A DNA stretch of 64,000 bases from Escherichia coli (GTDB lineage Bacteria > Pseudomonadota > Gammaproteobacteria > Enterobacterales > Enterobacteriaceae). Positions 3,457 through 64,000 of this stretch are shown here, in pieces; position 1 is the stretch's first letter, and each line of letters starts with the position of its first letter. Under the pieces are notes generated by a model, which was given only the letters and a program-made list of their open reading frames with translations, was not told where the DNA came from and ran no database searches. The stretch is from assembly GCF_003019035.1 (NCBI RefSeq), contig NZ_CP027448.1; one strand, written 5' to 3'. The position numbers and the translations under genes were made by a program.

Positions 3457-4016
3457 CATTTCTCATCAAGCACGGCCTGAAGTTCTGCCTTTATCCGGTT
3501 CTGGCGGCGGATTTTATCCAGACGCGTTGCCGCATACGCTTCCTCCTCCTGAGAAATATGCTCCGTCACATACCCTTCCGTGTCATACCGGCAGGCACCG
3601 GCTTTCATGGCACACAGATAGCTTTCTGAACGGGTGATGGCCTTCAGCGCCCTGCGCAGTTTTTTATGCGAGAGTGGGATATTCCGCTGCGCCACGTCTT
3701 CCATTAACACGTCCCGGATACCACAGGCCAGAAGCCGGGGTGTGTCACCGTCAAACAATCCCGGCCACCAGGGCTTCAGGGTGTTCACGGCCTCATCCAG
3801 CGTGGGCAGGTTCAGATAAATGGACAGCGCCTGTCTGGCCTGCGCTTTTTTTGCCGCCAGCTCCGCTTCCCGGGCTGCTTTCTCGGCCAGCTTCTGCTTT
3901 TTCACCTTCCATTTTGGTGGCGTGGTGACATTGATGATGGTTTTCCGGCTGCGGACAGGCGTCTCTCCTTCCGTTTTCCGCTTCAGTGTCAGTACAGGTC
4001 GTTTTTGCTCTGCCAT
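3456..4016 (-). CDS. finO: FinO fertility inhibition protein (RNA chaperone for FinP)
   Basis: ORF contains [40 protein letters not shown]..., near-identical to F/R100 FinO; start set at the internal Met, track ORF starts at 4091. Confidence 0.9.
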
Positions 4017-36540: not shown

Positions 36541-36660
36541 CAGTTTCAATTTTTAACGTGGTATTAACCACATAATTAATATACTAATTATCTGACGTAT
36601 TGTCATCTTTTTGAATCATAAAAATTCTTATATTTGAACCAACTCAAACTTCATTTTCAT

Positions 36661-54695: not shown

Positions 54696-55129
54696 GTACC
54701 GTTTATCACCGTCCGGCTGACCCTTCAGGCGATGACAGTTACGTGCGACCGTTGTTTGCCGATCGTTGCCAGGCCGGTTTTCCTTCGCCTGCCACTGATT
54801 ATGCTGAGCAGGAACTGGATCTGAACAGCTATTGCATCAGCAGACCTGCAGCCACCTTCTTTCTGCGCGCCAGCGGTGAATCGATGAACCAGGCTGACGT
54901 GCAGAATGGTGATCTGCTGGTAGTGGACAGGGCCGAAAAACCACAACACGGGGACATCGTTATCGCTGAGATCGACGGTGAGTTCACCGTCAAACGACTG
55001 CTGTTGCGCCCACGCCCGGCACTGGAGCCGGTTTCAGACAGCCCGGAGTTCCGCACACTGTATCCGGAAAACATCTGTATTTTTGGTGTTGTCACTCACG
55101 TGATACACAGGACGCGGGAGTTACGCTGA
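54692..55129 (+). CDS. impA: ImpA (UmuD-like S24 peptidase-domain protein)
   Basis: 145-aa ORF with LexA/UmuD-type Ser-Lys dyad context (ASGESM ... K) and overlap with impB start. Confidence 0.85.
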   Translation: MSTVYHRPADPSGDDSYVRPLFADRCQAGFPSPATDYAEQELDLNSYCISRPAATFFLRASGESMNQADVQNGDLLVVDRAEKPQHGDIVIAEIDGEFTVKRLLLRPRPALEPVSDSPEFRTLYPENICIFGVVTHVIHRTRELR

Positions 55130-55251
55130 TGTTTACACTGGCTGATATCAACAGTTTCTACGCCTCATGTGAAAAAGTTTTCCGCCCGGACCTTCGCAAC
55201 GAACCGGTCATCGTACTCAGCAATAACGATGGCTGTGTGATCGCACGCAGC
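55126..55251 (+). pseudogene. impB: impB (UmuC-like Y-family polymerase), 5' fragment cut by insertion
   Basis: MFTLADINSFYASCEKVFRPDLRNEPVIVLSNNDGCVIARS matches the UmuC N-terminus, then leaves homology and hits a stop at about 55284. Confidence 0.8.
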
Positions 55252-55301
55252 CCAGATTATGTGGAATTGCAAGTAACGTTGTAGTGCTGATGAGGAAAAT
55301 T

Positions 55302-57530
55302 TTATCTGACTACAATATTGATATCGTTTTCCGCAACAATCAGCATCACGGCAGGTAAACCCTCCACACGCATTTTCTGGTGTAATTTTTTGATTAAATT
55401 ATCATCTTCATTACTGGCTTTTGCGGAAAAGCCTTGTGGATGGGAGTGCCATTCGCCAACATAATCGACAACACGAGCGGTCAACTGGTGAACCCGTTCT
55501 AATGCTTCTTGTTGTCCCGCTTCTCCCCGGACAAAGGAGGCTGGAGAGGATTTACTGTCGATAGGTTCAGGGAGCACGTCAACCAGAATAATCGTTTTGT
55601 TCTTAAAATCTGTTATGCCAACAATTGCACCTCCTGTTTCATTAGGCAGTGCCTGTAAGCGGGTGTGCTGCAATTTTTGCGCTAAGCCCTGGTCATATTT
55701 AACAACCCATTCGCCAGAAATTATAGATACCACGGAATAGAGTTCAATTTCATGTGCATCCATCGCGCCTGATATTTCATCAGATACCCAGATACACAAT
55801 CGAGCATTTCCTTTGAGTGCAGTCTGGCGAAGTTGGCGTGAGAGGATACCGGCATGAACATGAATACATTCACTGGACATACGTACAGAAATATCCCGAC
55901 ATCCACCACCGACCCAACGATCGCCATAATTGTGCTGTAGGTGAGTACTTCCCCACTCACTGCTCAAAATTGCCCGATAGTATTGCCCCTCAATTGCATC
56001 AATTCGGCATTGTCTGTCTACATCCTCCATTAACATCACGCTAGACTGACCCGATGGAGTCAGAAACAGGCTAACTATTCTGGGTATATCATCTTTTAAC
56101 ACTAGAGTCCTCGGCACCTCAAAGGTGGTACTGACATCCACAACTAAGTCTGCCTCATTCATTGCCTTAGCAATATCATCATCGTCATCAAGAATACTTT
56201 TATGGATCGCCTGAGGGAGGGGCTCATGCGGATAAATAGATTTGGCAATATGCTGAATAATATGGGGTTTTGAGACTCCAATATGACAATCAAACCCAAT
56301 ATGGCGAGACAAATTATGTGGAAGAAGCCGATCTGGATCAATAAAAGTCCATGTCCCCCACCCCATTCGAATCCAAATATCAGCCAATGTACTACCAAGA
56401 GCGCCAACTCCAGCTAAAATACCTCGAAAAGCTGCACTCTCTGAATCAACAGCAGATATGTCTCTCGCATGTGTGGCCTTCATAGCCGAACGTATTTCAA
56501 CTGGTAAAAGCGGTAATTGTCGCCACTTGGTACTAATTGATCCGCCAAGAAGCCGTACGCGATGCTGTACTCCTCGCTCATTTTTTGGCGCCAGCATATC
56601 TAGTGCAGTGGCAAGTTCACCGAGTGAACTTTGCACAACATAGCCCATCACATCCGTACGTTCTGTTTCTCCGTTTCTTAGACGGGGGATCCAAAGCAGG
56701 ATAAGTAAGCCTTCTCCTTTACCAGACGTTGGGCGGATACCATCACTTGGTATTGCTTCATAAACAGCGTCAGTTAGTGGTTTTAGGAGCTCACTTCCCC
56801 ATTCATTAAGTTGTTCTTCTAATTTTCCCAGATTATCCGGGTATGTAGCCACCGTAGAAACATCGACAGGAGGAACAGCAATAGTTAATAAGCGAAATGG
56901 CTTAACGCTTGAGGTATCTTGTTCTGGTACAGCCCTTAAAATAATCGGTCGCCCCTCACTGACCATCTGGAGACTGAGCTTATTGTCAGTCGCGTGATGA
57001 TAATCGGGGTAATTGGCTGGCAAAATGAGCTGATAGGGACTCAAATAAAAAAGTTGCTCAAGTGGCTGATCTTCTCGATGTAGATGCAGTTCGGCCGATT
57101 CTCTAAGCCACCAAAAAATGCGCTCAAGGAATCTCTCGGGGGTCCAACTGCGCTCAACTGCGCTCCAGGAGGCCTCATATAGGCAAAGAATTCGTGGTGA
57201 GCCAGGTTCTCCAGCATGCTGGTGAGAAAGAACAGGGAAATCTTTCCGCAATGCATGAACCAAGATAGGTATGCTTGATTTGGGATTGACCTCAATAGCC
57301 AATCGTTCTTTACGACGAATACGGGCTTGATTACCAGAAGCCACAGTCCCATCAGCAGCATCAATGATTAGATATTCCGAGCGGTTATCATTTATTTCAG
57401 AAAATCGTAATTCTCTGACTGTGACGTAAGGATGATTCTCGCATGCTTTAAGCAGCGAAATCGTTTGTGGATAAAGGCTATCGCGCCCCGATGAATCGAG
57501 GCGCTCACCCAATTCGAAATATTCGATCAT
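55302..57530 (-). CDS. Fused E2-like / E1-like (ThiF/MoeB) / JAB-MPN peptidase protein
   Basis: 742-aa ORF: N-terminal H...C pattern (HQHAGEPGSPRILCLY, UBC-like); central Rossmann GILAGVGALGSTLADIWIRMGWGTWTFIDPDRLLPHNLSRH (E1 signature); C-terminal JAMM-like EWHSHPQGFSAKASNEDD. Confidence 0.75.
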   Translation of the reverse strand: MIEYFELGERLDSSGRDSLYPQTISLLKACENHPYVTVRELRFSEINDNRSEYLIIDAADGTVASGNQARIRRKERLAIEVNPKSSIPILVHALRKDFPVLSHQHAGEPGSPRILCLYEASWSAVERSWTPERFLERIFWWLRESAELHLHREDQPLEQLFYLSPYQLILPANYPDYHHATDNKLSLQMVSEGRPIILRAVPEQDTSSVKPFRLLTIAVPPVDVSTVATYPDNLGKLEEQLNEWGSELLKPLTDAVYEAIPSDGIRPTSGKGEGLLILLWIPRLRNGETERTDVMGYVVQSSLGELATALDMLAPKNERGVQHRVRLLGGSISTKWRQLPLLPVEIRSAMKATHARDISAVDSESAAFRGILAGVGALGSTLADIWIRMGWGTWTFIDPDRLLPHNLSRHIGFDCHIGVSKPHIIQHIAKSIYPHEPLPQAIHKSILDDDDDIAKAMNEADLVVDVSTTFEVPRTLVLKDDIPRIVSLFLTPSGQSSVMLMEDVDRQCRIDAIEGQYYRAILSSEWGSTHLQHNYGDRWVGGGCRDISVRMSSECIHVHAGILSRQLRQTALKGNARLCIWVSDEISGAMDAHEIELYSVVSIISGEWVVKYDQGLAQKLQHTRLQALPNETGGAIVGITDFKNKTIILVDVLPEPIDSKSSPASFVRGEAGQQEALERVHQLTARVVDYVGEWHSHPQGFSAKASNEDDNLIKKLHQKMRVEGLPAVMLIVAENDINIVVR

Positions 57531-58714
57531 TGGTTTGATACACCTGCCCTAGGAGCGGCGGCCGTAGCAGCACTTACCGCAGCTGAAACAGCACCAACAA
57601 TAGCGGGTATTAACTTCCCGTCTCCAGCCACTTCAAATTCAAGGAACGCTGTATCTTTAAGATCCCCCGTACAGCTAAACCAACCATCAACACTGTCCAG
57701 AATATCCTCATACTCACGCTTAGCCCGGATGCACGGTGGATCATAATCATCATCAAGTATCTGATTGCTACTCGATACAATTGTTGCCCCGGAACGAGCC
57801 TGACCTAAAGCATTACGGGCCGCATCACAAACTTCAGCATTCTCCCCCCATTGTGACCAGCTATCATAGGAAAGTGAATGCCATGAACAATGATGCGGTG
57901 TGAGGAGAAGATCATATTCTAGTGCCTCAGCATTGCTTTTGTAACGATCCCATAATCGCTCCCAGATGAGAACTTCTGCGTCTCCACCTAATAGAAAGTG
58001 CATAGGATTACGGGAATATGCAGAGGGCAGTATTTTCATGTTCATGATGATACTGGATTCGTTTTTAGAAAGAGCTTCTTCCAAATATTCATCATCTTCA
58101 TGTGGTGCGGGCGCCAGAAGCTGTGCGGAGAACACTTCTGAAATTTGCCCGTCAATTCTGGTGAATGTATCTCCAGCTTTGATAAGAATGGCACTCAGAT
58201 CATCTGTTTTGCCATTAATATCTTCACCCATGATAAGGATTCGATTACCGCTAGATGCATAACCATGTTCCCGCCAGTATTTTACTCGGCGCCGTGCTTC
58301 TGTATTAAATGCCTGAGCATCTTCGCAAAGTGTGTGACTTTTGGAACGACGCCGAAAAATCAATGGTGATGACCACAATTCTCGAATAATGATACGCTTT
58401 TCTGAACGTTTCACATCGTCATCTGGATAATCTTCAGGACGGCCCAGCCAGAAATGTTTACGCAGGCCACCGCAATGATCCTGATCGGGATGACTGAGCA
58501 TAAAAACATCAATAAAGGGACGATCTTTTTCATCATACTTCAATCTGCTACGTAATGCCGAGGCAACATCAGGTGTGTCATCATTGGGGTTATCAGCAGC
58601 AGAGCGAATATGTACATCAATCAGAATGGATGTGCCCCGGGTGTCGGCCAAACGTACCAGTGTCATATCACCGTTGCCGACTTGGAAAAAAGTAATTTTG
58701 GCTGCCATCGACAT
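57527..58714 (-). CDS. Metallo-beta-lactamase-fold protein
   Basis: 395-aa ORF with HPDQDHCGG (HxHxDH metal site); stop overlaps the downstream start (ATGA). Confidence 0.8.
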   Translation of the reverse strand: MSMAAKITFFQVGNGDMTLVRLADTRGTSILIDVHIRSAADNPNDDTPDVASALRSRLKYDEKDRPFIDVFMLSHPDQDHCGGLRKHFWLGRPEDYPDDDVKRSEKRIIIRELWSSPLIFRRRSKSHTLCEDAQAFNTEARRRVKYWREHGYASSGNRILIMGEDINGKTDDLSAILIKAGDTFTRIDGQISEVFSAQLLAPAPHEDDEYLEEALSKNESSIIMNMKILPSAYSRNPMHFLLGGDAEVLIWERLWDRYKSNAEALEYDLLLTPHHCSWHSLSYDSWSQWGENAEVCDAARNALGQARSGATIVSSSNQILDDDYDPPCIRAKREYEDILDSVDGWFSCTGDLKDTAFLEFEVAGDGKLIPAIVGAVSAAVSAATAAAPRAGVSNQ

Positions 58715-58767
58715 CTCCTTTAGGGATACGAAAGATTGAGGTTAAGAGCATCTATTGCTAAGATACA

Positions 58768-58796
58768 TCTAGTAATTATACTAGTCTAGTAATTAG
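58768..58796. promoter_or_regulatory. Direct repeats in the divergent promoter region; candidate operator
   Basis: tctagtaatta at 58768..58778 and 58785..58795, in the 128-bp gap between divergent operons. Confidence 0.35.
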
Positions 58797-58842
58797 ACGT
58801 ATATTTTGGACTTAAATTGTAAGTACAGGAAATTATTGATAA

Positions 58843-59697
58843 ATGAGTGATAAAATGGTGAGAACTGGTCATTGGAGCCAAGAAAGACGGCTTGAATTCA
58901 TCGATTTTCGCCTACTGTGGGAAGGTCGGCTTAACCGTGCAGATCTCACGACATTTTTCAGAATTTCAGTTCCGCAAGCCTCATTAGATTTGGCAAAATA
59001 TCAAGAAGTTGCGCCAAACAACATGGTGTATGATCGAACTCAGAAGGCTTACATTACGACTCCTGATTTCAAACCTGTTTTTACAAGCTTTGACAGTAAT
59101 CATTACCTGAATGAACTACTTGGGCGAGAAAATGAAATAGTGGATCCTGATGATAGTTTCATTGGGTGGGTACCCCCGGTAGCCAGCCTTCCTCTCCCTG
59201 CCAGGAAAGTACAACCTGAAATATTGATTGATTTAATTCGAGCCATGCAAAGAAAACAGGCTTTGGTTGTTGATTATCGCTCAATGACTAATGAACCAGC
59301 AATTCGTACGCTATACCCAACAGCATTTGCACATGATGGGCATCGGTGGCATGTTCGTGCTTATTGTTTTAAGTCTACAATGTTTAAAGATTTTGTTCTT
59401 GGTAGGTTTTTTAAAATCGTTGAATTTGTTTCCCCACCGACATCAATTCCACAAGATGTGGACTGGAATACATTTATTGACGTGGTAATAGGTCCAAACC
59501 CTAACTACGATATGAATAAACGGCTATCTATTGAACATGATTATCAAATGGTAAAAGGAGAAGCAAAAATCCACATACGTAAAGCGCAATTATATTATCT
59601 TAATCGTCGATTAAATTTGGATGTAAATAGCGATGGTTCAATAGATGACAAACAGCAGATCATCATGCTCAGAATAGACGAGTCTAAAACCTATTAA
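58843..59697 (+). CDS. wHTH-WYL regulator (BrxR/CapW-like)
   Basis: 284-aa ORF with N-terminal HTH-like region and WYL-like segment LVVDYRSMTNEPAIRTLYPTAFAHDGHRWHVRAYCFKSTMFKDFVLGRF. Confidence 0.65.
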   Translation: MSDKMVRTGHWSQERRLEFIDFRLLWEGRLNRADLTTFFRISVPQASLDLAKYQEVAPNNMVYDRTQKAYITTPDFKPVFTSFDSNHYLNELLGRENEIVDPDDSFIGWVPPVASLPLPARKVQPEILIDLIRAMQRKQALVVDYRSMTNEPAIRTLYPTAFAHDGHRWHVRAYCFKSTMFKDFVLGRFFKIVEFVSPPTSIPQDVDWNTFIDVVIGPNPNYDMNKRLSIEHDYQMVKGEAKIHIRKAQLYYLNRRLNLDVNSDGSIDDKQQIIMLRIDESKTY

Positions 59698-59709
59698 GGG
59701 AATATTTAT

Positions 59710-60228
59710 ATGAATGCGAATGATGTTAACAAACGGAATAAAGAATGGATGATTGTAATCATTATTATCTATCTTTTTATTTTGTTATGTATAGCAACAT
59801 ACGCTATTGGGGCTATGTCTCTAGGTTGGTTACCAACACCTTACGCACCATTAAGGGTGCCACTGATGTGCGGAGCAATTGCCTATATAGGTGGTTGTTT
59901 ATATTGTTTTCGTGCAATTTACCTCAATAAATGTATTAGAAAACAATGGGATCCAGATTGGCATGTATGGTATTTCATTCGCCCACTGACCAGTACAATC
60001 GCAGGTGCTATCAGTTATTTATTCCTTAAGGCGGGGTTGTTAGTTTTGGAGTCTAGTTCCAATGTAGGAGCTAGTGAAATGGGTTTCTTTGCGCTGGCAT
60101 TTATTGCTGGTTTTAACGTCGATAAATTTGTCGCAAAAATCGAGGAAGTTGCAAAGGCTGTCTGGGGTATTGAAAAAACTCGAAGCTCGACTAATAATGA
60201 TGCGAAAAATTCGGAAAAAAAAGAATAG
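59710..60228 (+). CDS. Small multi-pass membrane protein (about 4 TM helices)
   Basis: 172-aa hydrophobic ORF 13 bp downstream of the regulator gene. Confidence 0.6.
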   Translation: MNANDVNKRNKEWMIVIIIIYLFILLCIATYAIGAMSLGWLPTPYAPLRVPLMCGAIAYIGGCLYCFRAIYLNKCIRKQWDPDWHVWYFIRPLTSTIAGAISYLFLKAGLLVLESSSNVGASEMGFFALAFIAGFNVDKFVAKIEEVAKAVWGIEKTRSSTNNDAKNSEKKE

Positions 60229-60274
60229 TCTGGATGTATTTAAATTAAAATGAAATTAGTGCTGAGCTATTTTA

Positions 60275-61594
60275 TTACTTTCTCTTATTTCCTGGGGTCG
60301 CGCCCCCAGTGAGCTTATTCAAAAGTTTGTCCACTGCCTGTATATCGTTTTCTACAGCGGCTTGTTCGTCATCAGTCAAAGGGATTTCCTGCATCAGCTT
60401 GAGTAGATTCTGGCGACCTTCCAAGTATTGTGCTTCAGATGAAGATTTTGGCATATAAAATGAGCATTTTGCACATGCCATCCGATGGGGGCATTGCTCA
60501 AAAAAGTCATAAGTACAGAAACCGTGTCCAAGATCATAATAACGCCATGGCTTCCCGGATGCTACCAGCCCTTCAGCTATCGCGTCTTGATCAATGAGAA
60601 CTGAAACCATGCGGCGATTACATTCAAAGTAACCAGCTTTATCCAGTGATCCTGCCAACCTCGTCGGTGTAATTTCGACATAATGTCGGGTAGATTCAGG
60701 TGAAGAATGCCCCAACCATTTCTGTAGCTCAAAAATATCAAGTGGTTCCCTGGCGTTGTAAAGCTGACTGGCTATAGTGGCTCTTGCCCGATGGCTGGTG
60801 ATTTTACCTCTGGCATCCTGCTCAGGTATACCAGCCTTTCTGCATAGCAAAGGGATTAGCGAATTATTAATATAACTACTGTGTACCCGTTTCCCCCTGT
60901 GCATGAACAAAAAACGGACGCTTTCACCTGTTTTAGAATCTTCCTGGAGGGGGTGGGGGTTACGAACAAGTTCCCATTGTTCGATATATTCCCCGATAAT
61001 AGGGTCAACTGGCTTTGTGAATGCCGCGTAAGTCTTGCTAACGGGTACATCTATCAGACAGATACGGGATACATTATTTTCTTCTGGCTGTTGCCAGCGG
61101 ATACACCCACACTGCATACGTAGAATTTCATCACGTCTGAGGCCTCCAAATAACCAGAGAACGCTGAGTGCTCTGACCATCTCCAGTGGATAAAAATAAG
61201 GATATGCAACACAGTTTGGTAAATCCGACTCCTGCAGGTTCTGTCCGGCGTGAAGTAATTTACACCACATATCATCGGCCACAATACGAGGCTCTGGTCC
61301 AACCAGGGAAGTCAAGCTACGCGGTGCCCTGAAAACTCTTTCTGGGCTGAATCGTACAGGTATCCATCCCCATTCCTGCAAGTCATGAAAGAAAGTTCTA
61401 ATATGACCCAACATCCTGGCTCTCGCTGCAGGCATCATCATTTTGCCACGACGGTCACGATACATGCCCCCAGGGGTTGCCCATTCACCAACTTTCATTC
61501 TACAAGCGGCGGTCACCCAGACGATCGCGGTGTCCCGTGTCCAATCAGATGGTGACAGACAGGTTGGATAGCACTCAGCTAACCAGCTGACCAC
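60275..61594 (-). CDS. Tyrosine recombinase (large, with C-terminal Cys/His cluster)
   Basis: 439-aa ORF with GGLRRDE, HRARAT, LGHSSPESTRHY catalytic-type motifs and CPHRMACAKC cluster. Confidence 0.8.
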   Translation of the reverse strand: MVSWLAECYPTCLSPSDWTRDTAIVWVTAACRMKVGEWATPGGMYRDRRGKMMMPAARARMLGHIRTFFHDLQEWGWIPVRFSPERVFRAPRSLTSLVGPEPRIVADDMWCKLLHAGQNLQESDLPNCVAYPYFYPLEMVRALSVLWLFGGLRRDEILRMQCGCIRWQQPEENNVSRICLIDVPVSKTYAAFTKPVDPIIGEYIEQWELVRNPHPLQEDSKTGESVRFLFMHRGKRVHSSYINNSLIPLLCRKAGIPEQDARGKITSHRARATIASQLYNAREPLDIFELQKWLGHSSPESTRHYVEITPTRLAGSLDKAGYFECNRRMVSVLIDQDAIAEGLVASGKPWRYYDLGHGFCTYDFFEQCPHRMACAKCSFYMPKSSSEAQYLEGRQNLLKLMQEIPLTDDEQAAVENDIQAVDKLLNKLTGGATPGNKRK

Positions 61595-62525
61595 ACTTTA
61601 GCAAAACGTACCAACCGGACAAAATAGATGAAGGGCGAAGTACTGAGGTAGCACGCCACCGTTTGCACCATACCAGCCATTTAGTTGGTACATCAGCTGT
61701 TGCATTATATTCGCGGGGAGGACGGCGACGTTGTGTTATTCGGTAATCAACCCCTTCCTCAATAGTCCCTGATGCAGCCAGTATACGCGATAGAGTAGCT
61801 GAGGCTTCCCGGAGGGAATCCGGGCACGTTGCAGCAATCTGTTGCAACGTGGTCACGGTGATATGGTCTAGTTGAGCATCCCTTTGCAGAAGCATTGCCA
61901 TACACATGGCATTTCTGATGCCGTTGTTCCGACTATCACGAGGCACATATCCCAGAACCTGCATCATATTGTCAAGCTGGCTGACGGCAAAATCGGTGCT
62001 CTGTCGGCCAAAAACCTTAAGACAGAGCCGATATTGATAGAATATGCCACAGTGTTCCAGCCGCTCAAACCCACATAGCAACCATGCTAACGCTATAACA
62101 TATTGCCGACAGTTGCCGCTGGCTCCAAACCGTCGACGAAATTCCCCTTCGCTGTTGCAAATAACTTCTAACCACTCTTCTTGTGTCCAGGCCCAGTATG
62201 TTTTCCGGATGCGCTGCATCTCTAGGACTATATCGTGAATAGATGAATTGTAGGGGGCCTTGGCCGCATGCATTTTTGTTAGCGTGTCGCGTAGTGGTAA
62301 AAGAAGGCGGGAAAGCCGTTTTTGTATATCAGGTGACCAGTTTTTACCTCCTTGCTGGAAGTGGTCGACCAATGTATCCAGTGCCGCAAGCTCGCTTTCA
62401 GAGATCTCCGATCGGGTATCCCAAAGTAGGGCAGGAAGACTGAGTGATGTTGTCGGACAAGGCGCTGTATGTTCAGATTGCATCATGGAGAAGGATCCTG
62501 CTGTTGTAGTACAGTAAGGCGGCAA
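61575..62525 (-). CDS. Recombinase-associated ORF (overlaps both flanking recombinase genes)
   Basis: 316-aa ORF overlapping the upstream gene by 43 nt and the downstream gene by 20 nt; no catalytic motifs seen; could be an accessory protein or the frameshifted N-terminal part of the 439-aa recombinase. Confidence 0.5.
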   Translation of the reverse strand: MPPYCTTTAGSFSMMQSEHTAPCPTTSLSLPALLWDTRSEISESELAALDTLVDHFQQGGKNWSPDIQKRLSRLLLPLRDTLTKMHAAKAPYNSSIHDIVLEMQRIRKTYWAWTQEEWLEVICNSEGEFRRRFGASGNCRQYVIALAWLLCGFERLEHCGIFYQYRLCLKVFGRQSTDFAVSQLDNMMQVLGYVPRDSRNNGIRNAMCMAMLLQRDAQLDHITVTTLQQIAATCPDSLREASATLSRILAASGTIEEGVDYRITQRRRPPREYNATADVPTKWLVWCKRWRATSVLRPSSILSGWYVLLKCGQLVS

Positions 62526-63535
62526 GTATGCAAGGATGCGACCGTGTAATTGAAACGACTACTCAGATCACGTGCGCTGAGATGAATATAGAGCAGAGTT
62601 GACTGGATACGACGGTGGCCAGCGAATGCAGCAATTTCGTGGATGTCCCACCCCACGCGTGCCAGTTCTGTCAGACAAAGATGTCGGAATGTGTGGGTGC
62701 TGATGAGTGGAAGATCAGCCTTAATAGCTAAACCGCGAACTACTTTTGACCAAGTCCAGTTGCTAATAGGTTCTGCCCGATTACGCGGAGAGCGTGAGAG
62801 AAACAACGGACCGCGAGATGAGCTTAGCATACGACGTTCAGTGAGCCATGCTGTGTAGAGTTCCCCCGTCACAGGAGAATAGGGCACAACCCGACCAAAG
62901 CGGTTTTTGGTATGCTCAGCGCGCACAGTGAGCAAGCGTTGAGAAGGGTCAATATCTCCGGTAGCTACTGTGCAAAGTTCTTCTCTGCGTAATCCGCAGT
63001 CGTAGGCCAGTGCCAGCATAAAACGAGTACGGATATCAGCTTGTCCGGCTACCTCAAGAAAGCGCAACCACTCCGCATCATCCGGGATCCACGGTAGCCG
63101 CCGCTGCAACGGCACTATACCAGCTTTTCCTTTCCCTCCGTTTTTCCAGACACCTCGTCTGACAGGATTTCTCTCCCGTATCCCCTCCTCACAAAGCCAA
63201 TAGTTGTACAGTCGTACCACCGTCAGCCGGTGGCGGATAGTGGCAGCTGCCAGCTGGCGACCGGTATGCAGGCTGCGGACATAGAGTGCGACCGTATCAC
63301 GTCCAGCGACAGCAGCCGTCAGGGCAACAGAGTGACAGAAAGCGAGCCAGTCATTGACGCCACGGGCATAGGCATCAATGGTGTTTGGAGCACACAGCAG
63401 GTCCTCCTGCAGGCACACCCACCGGCAAGCTGAAGGATCGGCCGACAGAAAAGGCAGCGCATCCAGCAGTTTCTTGTGCACAGCATCCCCCTTTTCGATA
63501 ACAGAATGTGTTGTATGAAATATAGTCAATTCCAA
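62483..63535 (-). CDS. Tyrosine recombinase (XerC/D-like)
   Basis: 350-aa ORF with GLRREE, HTFRH, GHRRIQSTLLYIHL catalytic-type motifs. Confidence 0.85.
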   Translation of the reverse strand: MELTIFHTTHSVIEKGDAVHKKLLDALPFLSADPSACRWVCLQEDLLCAPNTIDAYARGVNDWLAFCHSVALTAAVAGRDTVALYVRSLHTGRQLAAATIRHRLTVVRLYNYWLCEEGIRERNPVRRGVWKNGGKGKAGIVPLQRRLPWIPDDAEWLRFLEVAGQADIRTRFMLALAYDCGLRREELCTVATGDIDPSQRLLTVRAEHTKNRFGRVVPYSPVTGELYTAWLTERRMLSSSRGPLFLSRSPRNRAEPISNWTWSKVVRGLAIKADLPLISTHTFRHLCLTELARVGWDIHEIAAFAGHRRIQSTLLYIHLSARDLSSRFNYTVASLHTCRLTVLQQQDPSP

Positions 63536-63543
63536 ATAACATA

Positions 63544-64000
63544 GAAGCGAAGCGGCTGGGCATAAAAATGGGAGTACCGTGGTTTCAGCTGAAGTCGGTG
63601 AAATTTCCGGAGCCGGTCATCGCCTTCTCCAGTAATTACGCGCTATACGCATCGATGTCGAACAGGGTTATGTCTCATCTCGAGGAGCTGGCGCCGGGCG
63701 TGGAGCAGTACAGTATTGATGAGATGTTTCTCGACGTGCGGGGTATTGACAGCTGCATCGATTTCGAGGATTTCGGCCGGCAGCTGCGTGAACACGTCAG
63801 GAACGGGACTGGCCTGACTATCGGTGTCGGAATGGGGCTAACCAAAACGCTGGCAAAGTCAGCACAGTGGGCTTCCAAAGAGTGGCCACAGTTTGGTGGC
63901 GTGCTGGCGTTAACGCCAGGCAATATCCGCCGTACGGAAAAACTGCTGTCACTGCAGCCGGTGGAGGAAATCTGGGGGGTAGGCAGCAGGATATCAAAGA
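63544..64000 (+). pseudogene. impB: impB (UmuC-like), 3' portion after the insertion (continues beyond window end)
   Basis: In-frame EAKRLGIKMGVPWFQLKSVKFPEPVIAFSSNYALYASMSNRVMSHLEELAPGVEQYSIDEMFLDVRGID... matches the UmuC region that follows the N-terminal fragment. Confidence 0.8.

What the first reader, a model, noticed from the sequence alone, without database searches (positions are those of the whole stretch)
58715..58842. Divergent promoter region with direct repeats between the two cargo operons
The 128-bp gap between the MBL operon (minus strand) and the regulator operon (plus strand) contains two copies of tctagtaatta spaced 17 bp apart inside an AT-rich stretch with partial dyad symmetry (ctagtaattatactag). 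This is a plausible operator for the adjacent wHTH-WYL regulator controlling both transcription units.
Basis: seen in the sequence. Interest (0 to 1): 0.45.

Follow-up and report, generated by a model that had tools for sequence, protein, structure and literature searches.

The report
Repressor binding sites controlling a phage-defence cassette
The repeated sequence between the two divergent operons is very probably a pair of adjacent binding sites for the neighbouring CapW/BrxR-type repressor, placed on a two-way promoter so that one DNA-damage-sensing protein can switch the whole 6A-MBL anti-phage cassette on; this is a known kind of switch, seen here on a system where it had not been described.

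Summary
TCTAGTAATTA occurs at 58768-58778 and 58785-58795, 17 bp start to start, in a 30% GC gap. The flanking genes are a 6A-MBL anti-phage pair (MBL enzyme and E2-E1-JAB "cap2_3") on the minus strand. On the plus strand are a wHTH-WYL-WCX regulator closest to CapW and a 4-TM protein.

The direct repeat is a by-product of two tandem inverted-repeat operators:
- O1: ATCTA-GTAAT-TATAC, 58767-58781.
- O2: GTCTA-GTAAT-TAGAC, 58784-58798.
- A third site (O3) is decayed in this copy.

A weight matrix trained only on the upstream regions of 70 homologous regulators from other genomes (next to Wadjet, CBASS or 6A-MBL) has the consensus CGTMTA-N5(AT-rich)-TAKACG. It ranks O2 (27.0 bits) and O1 (23.8 bits) first and second in the whole 64-kb window. 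Across the family, sites come in arrays of two or three with centre spacings of only 15 or 17 bp. The experimentally validated E. coli CapW site fits the same motif.

The sites abut a conserved symmetric -10 (TAAGATA, 58759-58765) that fits a bidirectional promoter.

I file this as a new member of a known kind, of moderate interest. Binding and repression remain untested.

The parts
58768..58778 (+). It corresponds to the last 4 nt of the O1 left arm, the spacer, and the first 2 nt of the right arm.
58785..58795 (+). Direct-repeat copy 2 (TCTAGTAATTA). It covers the same part of O2.
58767..58781 (.). Operator O1 core, ATCTA-GTAAT-TATAC. The 25-bp site is 58762-58786, with its axis at 58774.
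   Evidence: 23.8 bits with the matrix trained without the window, second-best hit in 64 kb. Conserved at the same place in 17 relatives.
58784..58798 (.). Operator O2 core, GTCTA-GTAAT-TAGAC, with perfect 5-bp arms. The 25-bp site is 58779-58803, with its axis at 58791.
   Evidence: 27.0 bits, the best hit in 64 kb. The left arm GTCTA (58784-88) is invariant in all 18 aligned loci.
58799..58813 (.). Decayed third operator O3 (GTATA-TTTTG-GACTT). Relatives have GTATA-TTTTT-TATGC here; this copy lacks 2 bp of the T run.
   Evidence: Alignment A2. 7 of 9 close relatives score a third site 15 bp after O2. The only variation among E. coli copies lies here.
58759..58765 (.). Predicted shared, symmetric -10 element TAAGATA. 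It reads TAAGAT on the + strand and TATCTT on the - strand.
   Evidence: The -11 and -7 positions (A58760, T58764) and A58765 are invariant columns. Hexamers and 17-bp spacers are conserved. This is an inference; no start-site data.
58736..58741 (+). Predicted -35 (TTGAGG) of the regulator-operon promoter, 17 bp upstream of TAAGAT.
   Evidence: TTGAG is kept in 15 of 18 loci with a 16-17 bp spacer. Inference.
58783..58788 (-). Predicted -35 (TAGACT) of the MBL-operon promoter. It coincides with the O2 left arm.
   Evidence: TAGAC(T/G/C) is present in all 18 loci with a 17-bp spacer to TATCTT. Inference.
58771..58771 (+). Predicted transcription start of the regulator operon (A, inside the O1 left arm).
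   Evidence: 7 nt after the -10. T58770 and A58771 are invariant. Inference.
58753..58753 (-). Predicted transcription start of the MBL operon, 18 bp from the + strand start.
   Evidence: Geometry of the symmetric -10 (PMC10268837 introduction). Inference.
58843..59697 (+). wHTH-WYL-WCX regulator of the CapW/BrxR family, 284 aa.
   Evidence: Pfam WYL. Sm CapW 7TB6 E=1.2e-62 over residues 10-282, BrxR 7T8K 2.5e-38. The identical protein carries PF26109 WHD_BrxR and PF26107 BrxR_CTD.
59710..60228 (+). 172-aa four-transmembrane protein, co-transcribed with the regulator and a likely component of the 6A-MBL system.
   Evidence: 75-88% identical in Pseudomonas 6A-MBL loci. Found only there, and it changes position within the cassette.
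57527..58708 (-). 6A-MBL system MBL-fold enzyme. The longest ORF runs to 58714; the probable start is 58708.
   Evidence: NCBIfam NF058524, E=1.4e-127, 425.6 bits against a cut-off of 220. Start.
55302..57530 (-). 6A-MBL system cap2_3 protein, an E2-E1-JAB fusion.
   Evidence: NCBIfam NF058523, E=2e-198. Pfam Prok-E2_A, ThiF, Prok-JAB.

Best explanation
The repeats are two adjacent operators for the neighbouring CapW-like repressor.

Site anatomy. Each operator is an imperfect palindrome: a 5-6 bp arm (C)GTMTA, a 5-bp AT-rich spacer, and the inverted arm TAKAC(G). O1 is 58767-58781 and O2 is 58784-58798. Their axes are 17 bp apart, which produces the 11-bp direct repeat as a side effect. A third site present in relatives has decayed here.

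Binding (inferred). One repressor dimer binds each palindrome, with its two winged-helix domains in successive major grooves.

Promoter (inferred). The sites lie against and across a compact bidirectional promoter:
- shared symmetric -10 TAAGATA, 58759-65;
- -35 TTGAGG for the regulator operon;
- -35 TAGACT, which is the O2 left arm, for the MBL operon.
O1 then covers -4 to +11 of the regulator promoter and -14 to -28 of the MBL promoter. O2 covers the MBL -35.

Consequence (inferred). An occupied array shuts both units: MBL plus cap2_3 on one side, and the regulator plus the 4-TM protein on the other.

Induction (by analogy with CapW). Single-stranded DNA made during DNA damage or phage infection binds the WYL domain, the winged-helix domains swing apart, the repressor leaves, and the whole 6A-MBL cassette is induced.

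Status of each step:
- Shown here: the sequence anatomy, its conservation, the family-wide motif, and the family placement of the proteins.
- Inferred: binding, promoter positions, repression and the ssDNA signal.
For: 1. Gene identity. The MBL and cap2_3 proteins pass the NCBIfam 6A-MBL equivalog cut-offs. The regulator aligns end to end with CapW structures at 1e-62.

2. Conserved residues. R32, S42, Q45 and S47, the DNA-binding residues mutated in Sm CapW (PMC9122588), are invariant in alignment A1. S147, R188 and RWHVR 168-172 match Ec CapW S158, R200 and the ssDNA motif (PMC11662680).

3. Family motif. 64 of 70 non-redundant upstream regions of homologues carry the palindromic motif. TATACG is 109-fold enriched in a k-mer count that used no seed. 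Both arms remain conserved without symmetrisation.

4. Held-out test. The matrix never saw the window, yet its two best hits in 64 kb are O2 (27.0 bits) and O1 (23.8 bits). The next hit scores 16.6 bits.

5. Held-out close relatives. L081-L089 have sites at the same offsets, with 17 and 15 bp spacing.

6. Conservation in 6A-MBL loci. GTCTA of O2 is invariant in 18 loci spanning 47-92% regulator identity. O1 and O2 are invariant among E. coli copies, and all variation but one SNP (T58759C) lies in the O3 remnant.

7. Experimental precedent.
- The validated Ec CapW 30-mer contains CGTATA-ATAAT-GCTACG (PMC11662680). It lies in a cluster of four matrix hits in its own divergent gap.
- BrxR sites are two half-sites separated by 5 bp, with an AT-rich narrowed minor groove and base contacts at +/-6 and +/-7 (PMC9122589, PMC9122601). 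Those positions are the G and T of GTMTA here.
- CapW represses in both directions from a shared promoter (PMC9122588).

8. Promoter. The invariant columns are exactly the -11, -7 and start positions of a symmetric -10. The predicted starts are 18 bp apart, the commonest bidirectional layout (PMC10268837).
Against: - There is no binding, footprint, start-site or expression data for this locus.
- The promoter hexamers are only 4 of 6 matches each, and the tool's own sigma-70 scan did not report them. Other -10 candidates exist: TATATT 58800-05, TTAAAT 58812-17, and TATAAT on the minus strand at 58780-75.
- Arm complementarity within O1 is modest: 3 of 5 here, with a mean of 0.58 across relatives. 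The alternative pairing TATAC-NN-GTCTA is at least as complementary, at 0.70. The choice of which arms form one site therefore rests on homologous structures and on the constant 5-bp spacer, not on this sequence alone.
- Sites 15-17 bp apart have overlapping 25-bp footprints, so simultaneous occupancy is unproven.
- The matrix scores the validated Ec CapW site at only 7.3 bits.
- Enrichment figures on the training set are circular. Only the window and L081-L090 are independent.
Confidence: 0.75

Rival explanations
1. The regulator recognises the 11-bp direct repeats as such, or binds a single site on the dyad CTAGTA-ATTA-TACTAG (58769-58784, axis 58776.5).
For: - The dyad has perfect 6-bp arms, and their centres are 10 bp apart, which suits a winged-helix dimer.
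- It is perfect in 4 close relatives and 5 of 6 in one more.
- The 11-bp repeat is exact.
Against: - Complementarity on this axis falls to 0-2 of 6 in Pseudomonas loci, although the recognition helix is unchanged.
- The family matrix gives less than 7 bits for any axis between 58775 and 58790.
- Known CapW and BrxR sites have a 5-bp spacer, not 4 bp (PMC9122589, PMC9122601, PMC11662680).
- Dimeric symmetric proteins do not normally read direct repeats.
Confidence: 0.1
2. The conserved blocks are only promoter elements (-10, -35, AT-rich UP-like DNA) of the two divergent promoters. The regulator acts elsewhere or not at all.
For: - TAKAC resembles the -35 consensus.
- The arm-plus-spacer sequences resemble -10 hexamers.
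- The region is AT-rich.
- Several sigma-70-like hexamer pairs can be drawn through it.
Against: - The motif is palindromic, with both arms conserved.
- It recurs 2-3 times at fixed 15 or 17 bp phasing.
- It follows the regulator gene into loci with unrelated cargo (Wadjet JetA, CBASS cyclase, patatin) and into GC-rich genomes.
- It matches a site that a homologue binds in vitro (PMC11662680).
Confidence: 0.06
3. The regulator binds these sites but works as an activator, like the WYL proteins DriD and PafBC, recruiting RNA polymerase when it senses ssDNA.
For: It has the same domain family. ssDNA-sensing WYL activators exist (PMC10853764, PMC11804915).
Against: - The protein is far closer to the repressors CapW (1e-62) and BrxR (2.5e-38).
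- The sites overlap the predicted core promoter and start site rather than lying upstream of it.
- CapW's conformational change releases DNA when ssDNA binds (PMC11662680).
Confidence: 0.05
4. The repeats belong to the mobile element, as recombinase-binding or replication repeats, or they are a chance feature of AT-rich spacer DNA.
For: - The cassette sits in an element with three tyrosine recombinases.
- An 11-bp repeat arises in 0.3-0.8% of simulations.
Against: - The same sites occur upstream of homologous regulators that lack these recombinases.
- They lie 1.5 kb from the recombinase genes and more than 3 kb from either end of the element.
- The held-out matrix ranks them first and second of 64 kb.
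Confidence: 0.02

Closest known systems
CapW operator in the bidirectional CBASS promoter (E. coli upec-117, S. maltophilia C11, P. aeruginosa PA17; PMC9122588, PMC11662680)
   Same: - The regulator is a close homologue: 39% identity to Ec CapW, E=1e-62 to Sm CapW, with an identical ISVPQASLD recognition helix.
- It is divergently transcribed from the defence genes.
- The site is an imperfect palindrome with a 5-bp AT-rich centre, next to or over the -10.
- In CapW, repression acts in both directions and an effector-like gene shares the regulator's operon.
- The ssDNA-binding residues are conserved.
   Different: - The cargo is a 6A-MBL system, not CBASS.
- Two strong adjacent sites (three in relatives) are predicted, whereas the papers tested single 30-bp probes. 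For Sm CapW they found that only one of two palindromes bound.
- Nothing here has been tested at the bench.
BrxR R-BOX / BrxR target (Acinetobacter NEB394 structure 7T8K, PMC9122589; E. fergusonii pEFER, PMC9122601)
   Same: - Same wHTH-WYL-WCX dimer.
- Two half-sites separated by 5 bp, with an AT-rich narrowed minor groove.
- Base contacts at +/-6 and +/-7, where this motif has its conserved G and T.
- The site lies at or just downstream of the promoter.
- PGAP names this very protein 'BrxR family' in some records.
   Different: - BrxR is more distant than CapW (E=2.5e-38) and has a different recognition motif: SRQQ in Acinetobacter against SVPQAS here.
- BrxR heads a co-directional BREX operon rather than a divergent pair.
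- BrxR half-sites are 10-11 bp and occur once per promoter, with a second box elsewhere in pEFER.
Symmetric bidirectional promoters (Warman et al. 2021, as summarised in PMC10268837)
   Same: - A 7-bp TAnnnTA element (TAAGATA) in which -11A and -7T of the two strands pair reciprocally.
- Predicted starts 18 bp apart, both on A.
- The window is plasmid-like. That paper reports such promoters about three times more often on plasmids than on chromosomes.
   Different: - Here both directions feed protein-coding operons.
- Each direction has its own conserved -35-like hexamer.
- The start sites are predictions only.
WYL activators DriD and PafBC (PMC10853764, PMC11804915)
   Same: The WYL domain senses ssDNA, and the protein binds a pseudo-palindromic target near a promoter.
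   Different: These proteins activate by recruiting or reprogramming RNA polymerase from upstream sites. This protein groups with the repressors, and its sites overlap the core promoter.

Membership tests
CapW/BrxR-type repressor-operator module | The regulator has the wHTH - WYL - WCX architecture over its full length | tested here: met
   Residues 10-282 align to Sm CapW 7TB6 (E=1.2e-62). It also hits 7TB5, 9C5G, 7T8K and 7QFZ. Pfam WYL. PF26109 WHD_BrxR and PF26107 BrxR_CTD are recorded for the identical protein.
CapW/BrxR-type repressor-operator module | DNA-contact residues of the recognition helix are conserved (Sm CapW R32, S42, Q45, S47) | tested here: met
   R32, S42, Q45 and S47 are invariant in 23 homologues. 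Numbering is 1:1 with Sm CapW.
CapW/BrxR-type repressor-operator module | The regulator gene is next to a defence system and (for CapW) on the opposite strand, sharing the intergenic promoter | tested here: met
   MBL and cap2_3 on the - strand and the regulator on the + strand, separated by 128-134 bp. The same layout occurs in 20 or more other loci.
CapW/BrxR-type repressor-operator module | An imperfect palindrome of about 19-25 bp with a 5-bp AT-rich centre in that promoter region | tested here: met
   O1 and O2. The motif CGTMTA-N5-TAKACG is shared with the validated Ec CapW site (PMC11662680).
CapW/BrxR-type repressor-operator module | The site overlaps core promoter elements | tested here: inconclusive
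   It overlaps the predicted -10 flank, the start site and a -35, but the promoters are predictions with 4/6 hexamers. No start-site data.
CapW/BrxR-type repressor-operator module | The protein binds the site and represses transcription | not testable with these tools
   Needs EMSA or fluorescence polarisation, and reporter assays.
CapW/BrxR-type repressor-operator module | The WYL domain carries the ssDNA-binding residues (Ec CapW S158, R200, RWHVR motif) | tested here: met
   S147, R188 and R168-W-H-V-R172 align to them. R188, R168, W169 and R172 are invariant in A1.
6A-MBL anti-phage system | MBL-fold enzyme matching NF058524 above its cut-off | tested here: met
   425.6 bits against a cut-off of 220, E=1.4e-127.
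6A-MBL anti-phage system | E2-E1-JAB fusion (cap2_3) matching NF058523 above its cut-off | tested here: met
   661.1 bits against a cut-off of 320, E=2e-198. Prok-E2_A, ThiF and Prok-JAB domains.
6A-MBL anti-phage system | Protects against phage | not testable with these tools
   Listed as a known jumbo-phage defence in P. aeruginosa (bioRxiv 10.1101/2025.09.30.679545; PMC13276650). The primary paper is not in the library.
Symmetric bidirectional promoter | Shared -10 in which -11A and -7T of the two strands pair (TAnnnTA) | tested here: met
   TAAGATA at 58759-65. A58760, T58764 and A58765 are invariant in 18 loci.
Symmetric bidirectional promoter | Divergent transcription starts about 18 bp apart | not testable with these tools
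   Predicted at 58771 (+) and 58753 (-). Needs 5' end mapping.
Iteron-like direct-repeat binding sites | Asymmetric units repeated head to tail, with no internal dyad | tested here: not met
   Each unit is itself an inverted repeat, and both arms are conserved in unsymmetrised logos.

The most novel reading that the evidence does not exclude
The whole CapW clade, whatever defence system it guards (6A-MBL, CBASS, Wadjet), may use an array of two or three overlapping palindromes locked at 15 or 17 bp centre spacing, rather than one operator.

In this reading, several dimers load on alternating faces of the DNA and act cooperatively. That would give a sharp, switch-like release when ssDNA appears. 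The arm sequence TAGAC doubles as the -35 of the guarded promoter. Loss of the third site in this E. coli lineage would then retune the basal level of the cassette.
Probability: 0.4. Interest if true: 0.55.

Novelty: new member of a known kind. Interest (0 to 1): 0.35.

Why it matters
- It gives the 6A-MBL ubiquitin-like defence system a concrete, testable control circuit: two defined sites, a predicted two-way promoter, and a predicted DNA-damage/ssDNA signal. That tells experimenters how to switch the system on. It also warns that cloning the two enzyme genes without the regulator and the 4-TM gene may misrepresent the system.
- It gives a family-wide "CapW box" (CGTMTA-N5-TAKACG, in arrays phased at 15 or 17 bp). 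The box can be used to find regulated genes next to any CapW homologue.
- It raises the question of whether these repressors act as multi-dimer assemblies.
- The principle is not new. A WYL repressor on a bidirectional defence promoter is already established.

Tried and rejected
- **Tool's sigma-70 hit.** The only reported hit, TTGCTA(58755)-16-TATACT(58782), is rejected as the main promoter. Neither hexamer is conserved in relatives.
- **RNA element.** The Rfam scan of 58500-59000 found nothing beyond one sub-threshold snoRNA-like chance match.
- **Hairpin or cruciform.** Folding 58755-58810 as DNA gives -4.2 kcal/mol, z=-1.3. This does not support a structural palindrome.
- **Matrix hit at 36565-36589.** It scores 16.6 bits in an AT-rich gap and is at chance level for 64 kb.
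- **ACTTA-AATTG-TAAGT (58810-24).** This perfect inverted repeat is not conserved beyond close relatives, and 24% of simulations contain one.
- **4-TM protein as Cap19.** I tested whether it is the CapW-associated three-TM protein Cap19. There is no similarity.
- **Published probe sequences.** The 2022 CapW paper and its supplements do not hold them as text. The Ec CapW 30-mer was found in the 2024 paper.
- **Exact published loci.** None of L001-L080 is the published Sm or Pa CapW locus, so only the Ec site could be checked.
- **Primary 6A-MBL paper.** It is not in the searchable library.
- **Alternative pairing TAKAC-(0 or 2 bp)-GTMTA as the dimer site.** I considered this and rejected it. 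The arm spacing would have to vary, the half-site centres would be only 5-7 bp apart, and the conserved G and T would fall at +/-1 and +/-2 instead of the +/-6 and +/-7 contacted in the BrxR-DNA structure. Complementarity alone cannot exclude it.

Full report
**The observation**

The sequence is as described. TCTAGTAATTA occurs at 58768-58778 and 58785-58795, 17 bp start to start. These are the only two exact copies in 64 kb. The 128-bp gap is 29.7% GC. An exact repeat this long within 40 bp arose in only 57-157 of 20,000 simulated versions of the gap. The repeat finder also reports a 46-bp imperfect palindrome, 58760-58805, centred on ACTAGT at 58780-85.

**The neighbouring genes**

On the minus strand:
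- 57527-58714 is the MBL-fold enzyme of the "anti-phage 6A-MBL system" (NCBIfam NF058524, E=1.4e-127).
- 55302-57530 is its E2-E1-JAB partner cap2_3 (NF058523, E=2e-198). Both are well above the curated cut-offs.

On the plus strand:
- 58843-59697 is a WYL protein that aligns over residues 10-282 with the crystal structure of S. maltophilia CapW (E=1.2e-62). It also matches Pa CapW and Rl CapW, and more distantly BrxR at 2.5e-38. Newer PGAP records name it "BrxR family".
- 59710-60228 is a 172-aa membrane protein with no family hit.

Homologues and PGAP start the MBL gene at the ATG at 58708, with AGGAG six bases upstream. The real gap is therefore about 134 bp.

**Comparative evidence**

A database search found 1,673 homologues of the regulator. 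An alignment of 23 of them shows that the recognition helix ISVPQASLD is essentially invariant. A scan of representative genomes returned 80 loci.
- About a dozen have the same cap2_3 - MBL | regulator layout (Pseudomonas, Stenotrophomonas, Nitrospirales).
- The rest do not. Of the ten divergent neighbours I scanned, four are Wadjet JetA (DUF3375), four are CBASS cyclases (SMODS), one is a patatin phospholipase, and one has no Pfam match.

Read by eye, the upstream regions share a repeated element. I seeded a palindromic weight matrix with GTCTA-N5-TAKAC and refined it on 70 non-redundant upstream regions. The window was not included. It converged on A-Y-n-C-G-T-M-T-A-n-W-W-W-n-T-A-K-A-C-G-n-R-T.
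- 64 of the 70 regions have at least one site, and 56 have two or three.
- Distances between neighbouring site centres are 17 bp (54 cases) or 15 bp (30 cases), and almost nothing else.

Three controls:
- An unseeded 6-mer count finds TATACG enriched 109-fold and TCTAGT 41-fold upstream of the regulators.
- A 15-bp core-only matrix gives the same 15/17 spacing, with 144 hits against about 8 in shuffles.
- Logos built without forcing symmetry keep both arms: 5.3 and 6.1 bits.

**Independent tests**

The matrix never saw the window. Its two best scores in the whole 64 kb are 58779-58803 (27.0 bits) and 58762-58786 (23.8 bits). The third-best hit scores 16.6 bits, which is about chance for this length.

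Nine closer relatives were fetched afterwards (Cronobacter, Klebsiella, Pectobacterium, Aeromonas, Providencia, Siccibacter, Yersinia, P. aeruginosa). All carry the same four-gene cassette (in Providencia L086 the 4-TM gene is missing and a transposase fragment follows the regulator) and score sites at the same offsets. Seven have three sites, spaced 17 then 15 bp.

In the 18-sequence alignment of 6A-MBL gaps, GTCTA at 58784-88 is invariant across 47-92% regulator identity. Among E. coli copies, O1 and O2 are invariant, and all differences but one SNP (T58759C) fall in the remnant of the third site.

**Revised anatomy**

- O1 is ATCTA-GTAAT-TATAC (58767-58781).
- O2 is GTCTA-GTAAT-TAGAC (58784-58798), with perfect arms.
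- Two bases separate them.
- The 11-bp direct repeat is simply the equivalent part of two tandem palindromes.
- Relatives have a third site abutting O2 (GTATA-TTTTT-TATGC). This copy and Cronobacter lack 2 bp of the T run, and the right arm is gone.

Which arms pair within one site cannot be settled by complementarity. The pairing TATAC-TA-GTCTA is as complementary as O1 or O2. I choose the 5-bp-spacer pairing for three reasons:
- That spacer is constant in the family, whereas the other gap is 0 or 2 bp.
- Arm centres 10 bp apart match a winged-helix dimer.
- Published data agree. Acinetobacter BrxR binds two half-sites 5 bp apart, with an AT-rich narrowed minor groove and base contacts at +/-6 and +/-7 (PMC9122589). 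E. fergusonii BrxR binds 11-bp repeats with a 5-bp spacer (PMC9122601). The E. coli CapW probe TAAAAACTGATCGTATAATAATGCTACGCT contains CGTATA-ATAAT-GCTACG (PMC11662680).

In the E. coli CapW locus itself (L090), four of the eight best matrix hits in 8 kb lie in the capW/cdnC gap, at spacings of 17, 18 and 15 bp. The validated site is one of them, though it scores only 7.3 bits.

It decays to 0-2 of 6 in Pseudomonas even though the recognition helix is unchanged.

**Promoter**

The tool's single sigma-70 hit is not conserved. The conserved blocks are TTGAG(G/A), then 16-17 bp, then TAAGATA, and on the other strand TAGAC(T/G), then 17 bp, then TATCTT. TATCTT is the reverse complement of AAGATA, which overlaps TAAGATA.

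TAAGATA (58759-65) has the TAnnnTA form in which -11A and -7T of the two strands pair. That predicts starts at A58771 (+) and 58753 (-), 18 bp apart. This is the commonest bidirectional layout described by Warman et al., and it is reported about three times more often on plasmids than on chromosomes (PMC10268837). The invariant alignment columns are exactly A58760, T58764, A58765, T58770 and A58771.

On this model:
- O1 covers -4 to +11 of the regulator promoter and -14 to -28 of the MBL promoter.
- The O2 left arm is the MBL -35.

This is inference. Each hexamer matches only 4 of 6, and other -10 candidates exist.

**Mechanism**

By homology, a repressor dimer on each site blocks RNA polymerase in both directions, as shown for CapW (PMC9122588). 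The residues that bind ssDNA in CapW are conserved here: S147, R188 and RWHVR 168-172. The likely inducer is therefore ssDNA from DNA damage or infection (PMC11662680; bioRxiv 10.1101/2025.11.13.688357).

Whether dimers 15-17 bp apart bind together, cooperatively or exclusively is unknown. The Acinetobacter BrxR study noted higher-order complexes at high protein concentration (PMC9122589).

**Comparison and novelty**

This is a CapW/BrxR-type repressor-operator module on a bidirectional defence promoter. That kind is known. What I could not find described:
- its pairing with 6A-MBL;
- the explicit family consensus;
- the array phasing at 15 or 17 bp.

The CapW paper tested single 30-bp probes, and for Sm CapW it found that one of two palindromes bound (PMC9122588). 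I rate it a new member of a known kind, interest 0.35. All functional claims need bench tests.

Noticed in passing
window 55129-55284 and 63529-63915; element about 55285-63530: An element of about 8.25 kb splits a umuC/impB-type Y-family polymerase gene. It carries cap2_3, MBL, the regulator, the 4-TM gene and three tyrosine-recombinase ORFs (60275-61594, 61575-62525, 62483-63535, all on the - strand). Residues 1-51 of the polymerase are encoded at 55129-55281, and residues 38-166 resume at 63529-63915, so residues 38-51 are encoded on both sides. The same element splits chromosomal umuC between umuD and dsbB in E. coli AMSCJX02, so it looks site-specific for umuC-family genes.
   Followed up: partly
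window 59710-60228; L001-L007, L009, L081-L089: The 172-aa four-TM protein is the best-conserved gene of the cassette: 75-88% identity to Pseudomonas, against 47-69% for the enzymes and the regulator. It occurs only in 6A-MBL loci. It changes place, following the regulator in most loci but lying downstream of cap2_3 in L006, L007 and L009. It has no Pfam, NCBIfam or PADLOC family and is unrelated to Cap19. It is probably an unlisted third component or effector of 6A-MBL.
   Followed up: partly
window 58706-58719: The longest MBL ORF starts at 58714. Homologues and PGAP use the ATG at 58708 (393 aa), which has AGGAG (58719-58715) six bases upstream.
   Followed up: yes
L008-L070 (for example L014, L019, L021, L024), upstream of the regulator start: Many Burkholderiales CapW homologues, next to Wadjet jetA or CBASS genes, have a TGn-extended -10 (such as TGAGACAAT or TGTGAAAAT) ending 6-7 nt before the ATG. 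Their mRNAs are probably leaderless. The 6A-MBL-linked regulators instead have a leader with a Shine-Dalgarno sequence.
   Followed up: no
window 58799-58813; A2 and A3 alignments: This E. coli lineage and Cronobacter have lost the third operator through a 2-bp deletion in the T run. Among E. coli copies, all sequence variation in the gap lies in this remnant, apart from one T58759C change in the predicted -10 of plasmid pN25d.
   Followed up: yes
L090 3526-3694 (E. coli EcPF14 = the published upec-117 CBASS locus): The published CapW promoter also contains a cluster of motif hits, with centres at 3549, 3566, 3584 and 3599 (spacings 17, 18 and 15 bp). Only the last of these was tested in the papers.
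   Followed up: partly
window 36565-36589: TAACCACATAATTAATATACTAATT scores 16.6 bits with the operator matrix. It lies in an AT-rich gap between two minus-strand ORFs. That is about chance level for 64 kb, and no related regulator is nearby.
   Followed up: partly
window 58769-58789: Three CTAG tetranucleotides fall within 21 bp (58769, 58781, 58786). From my own knowledge, not tested here, CTAG is strongly under-represented in E. coli, which makes this cluster conspicuous.
   Followed up: no
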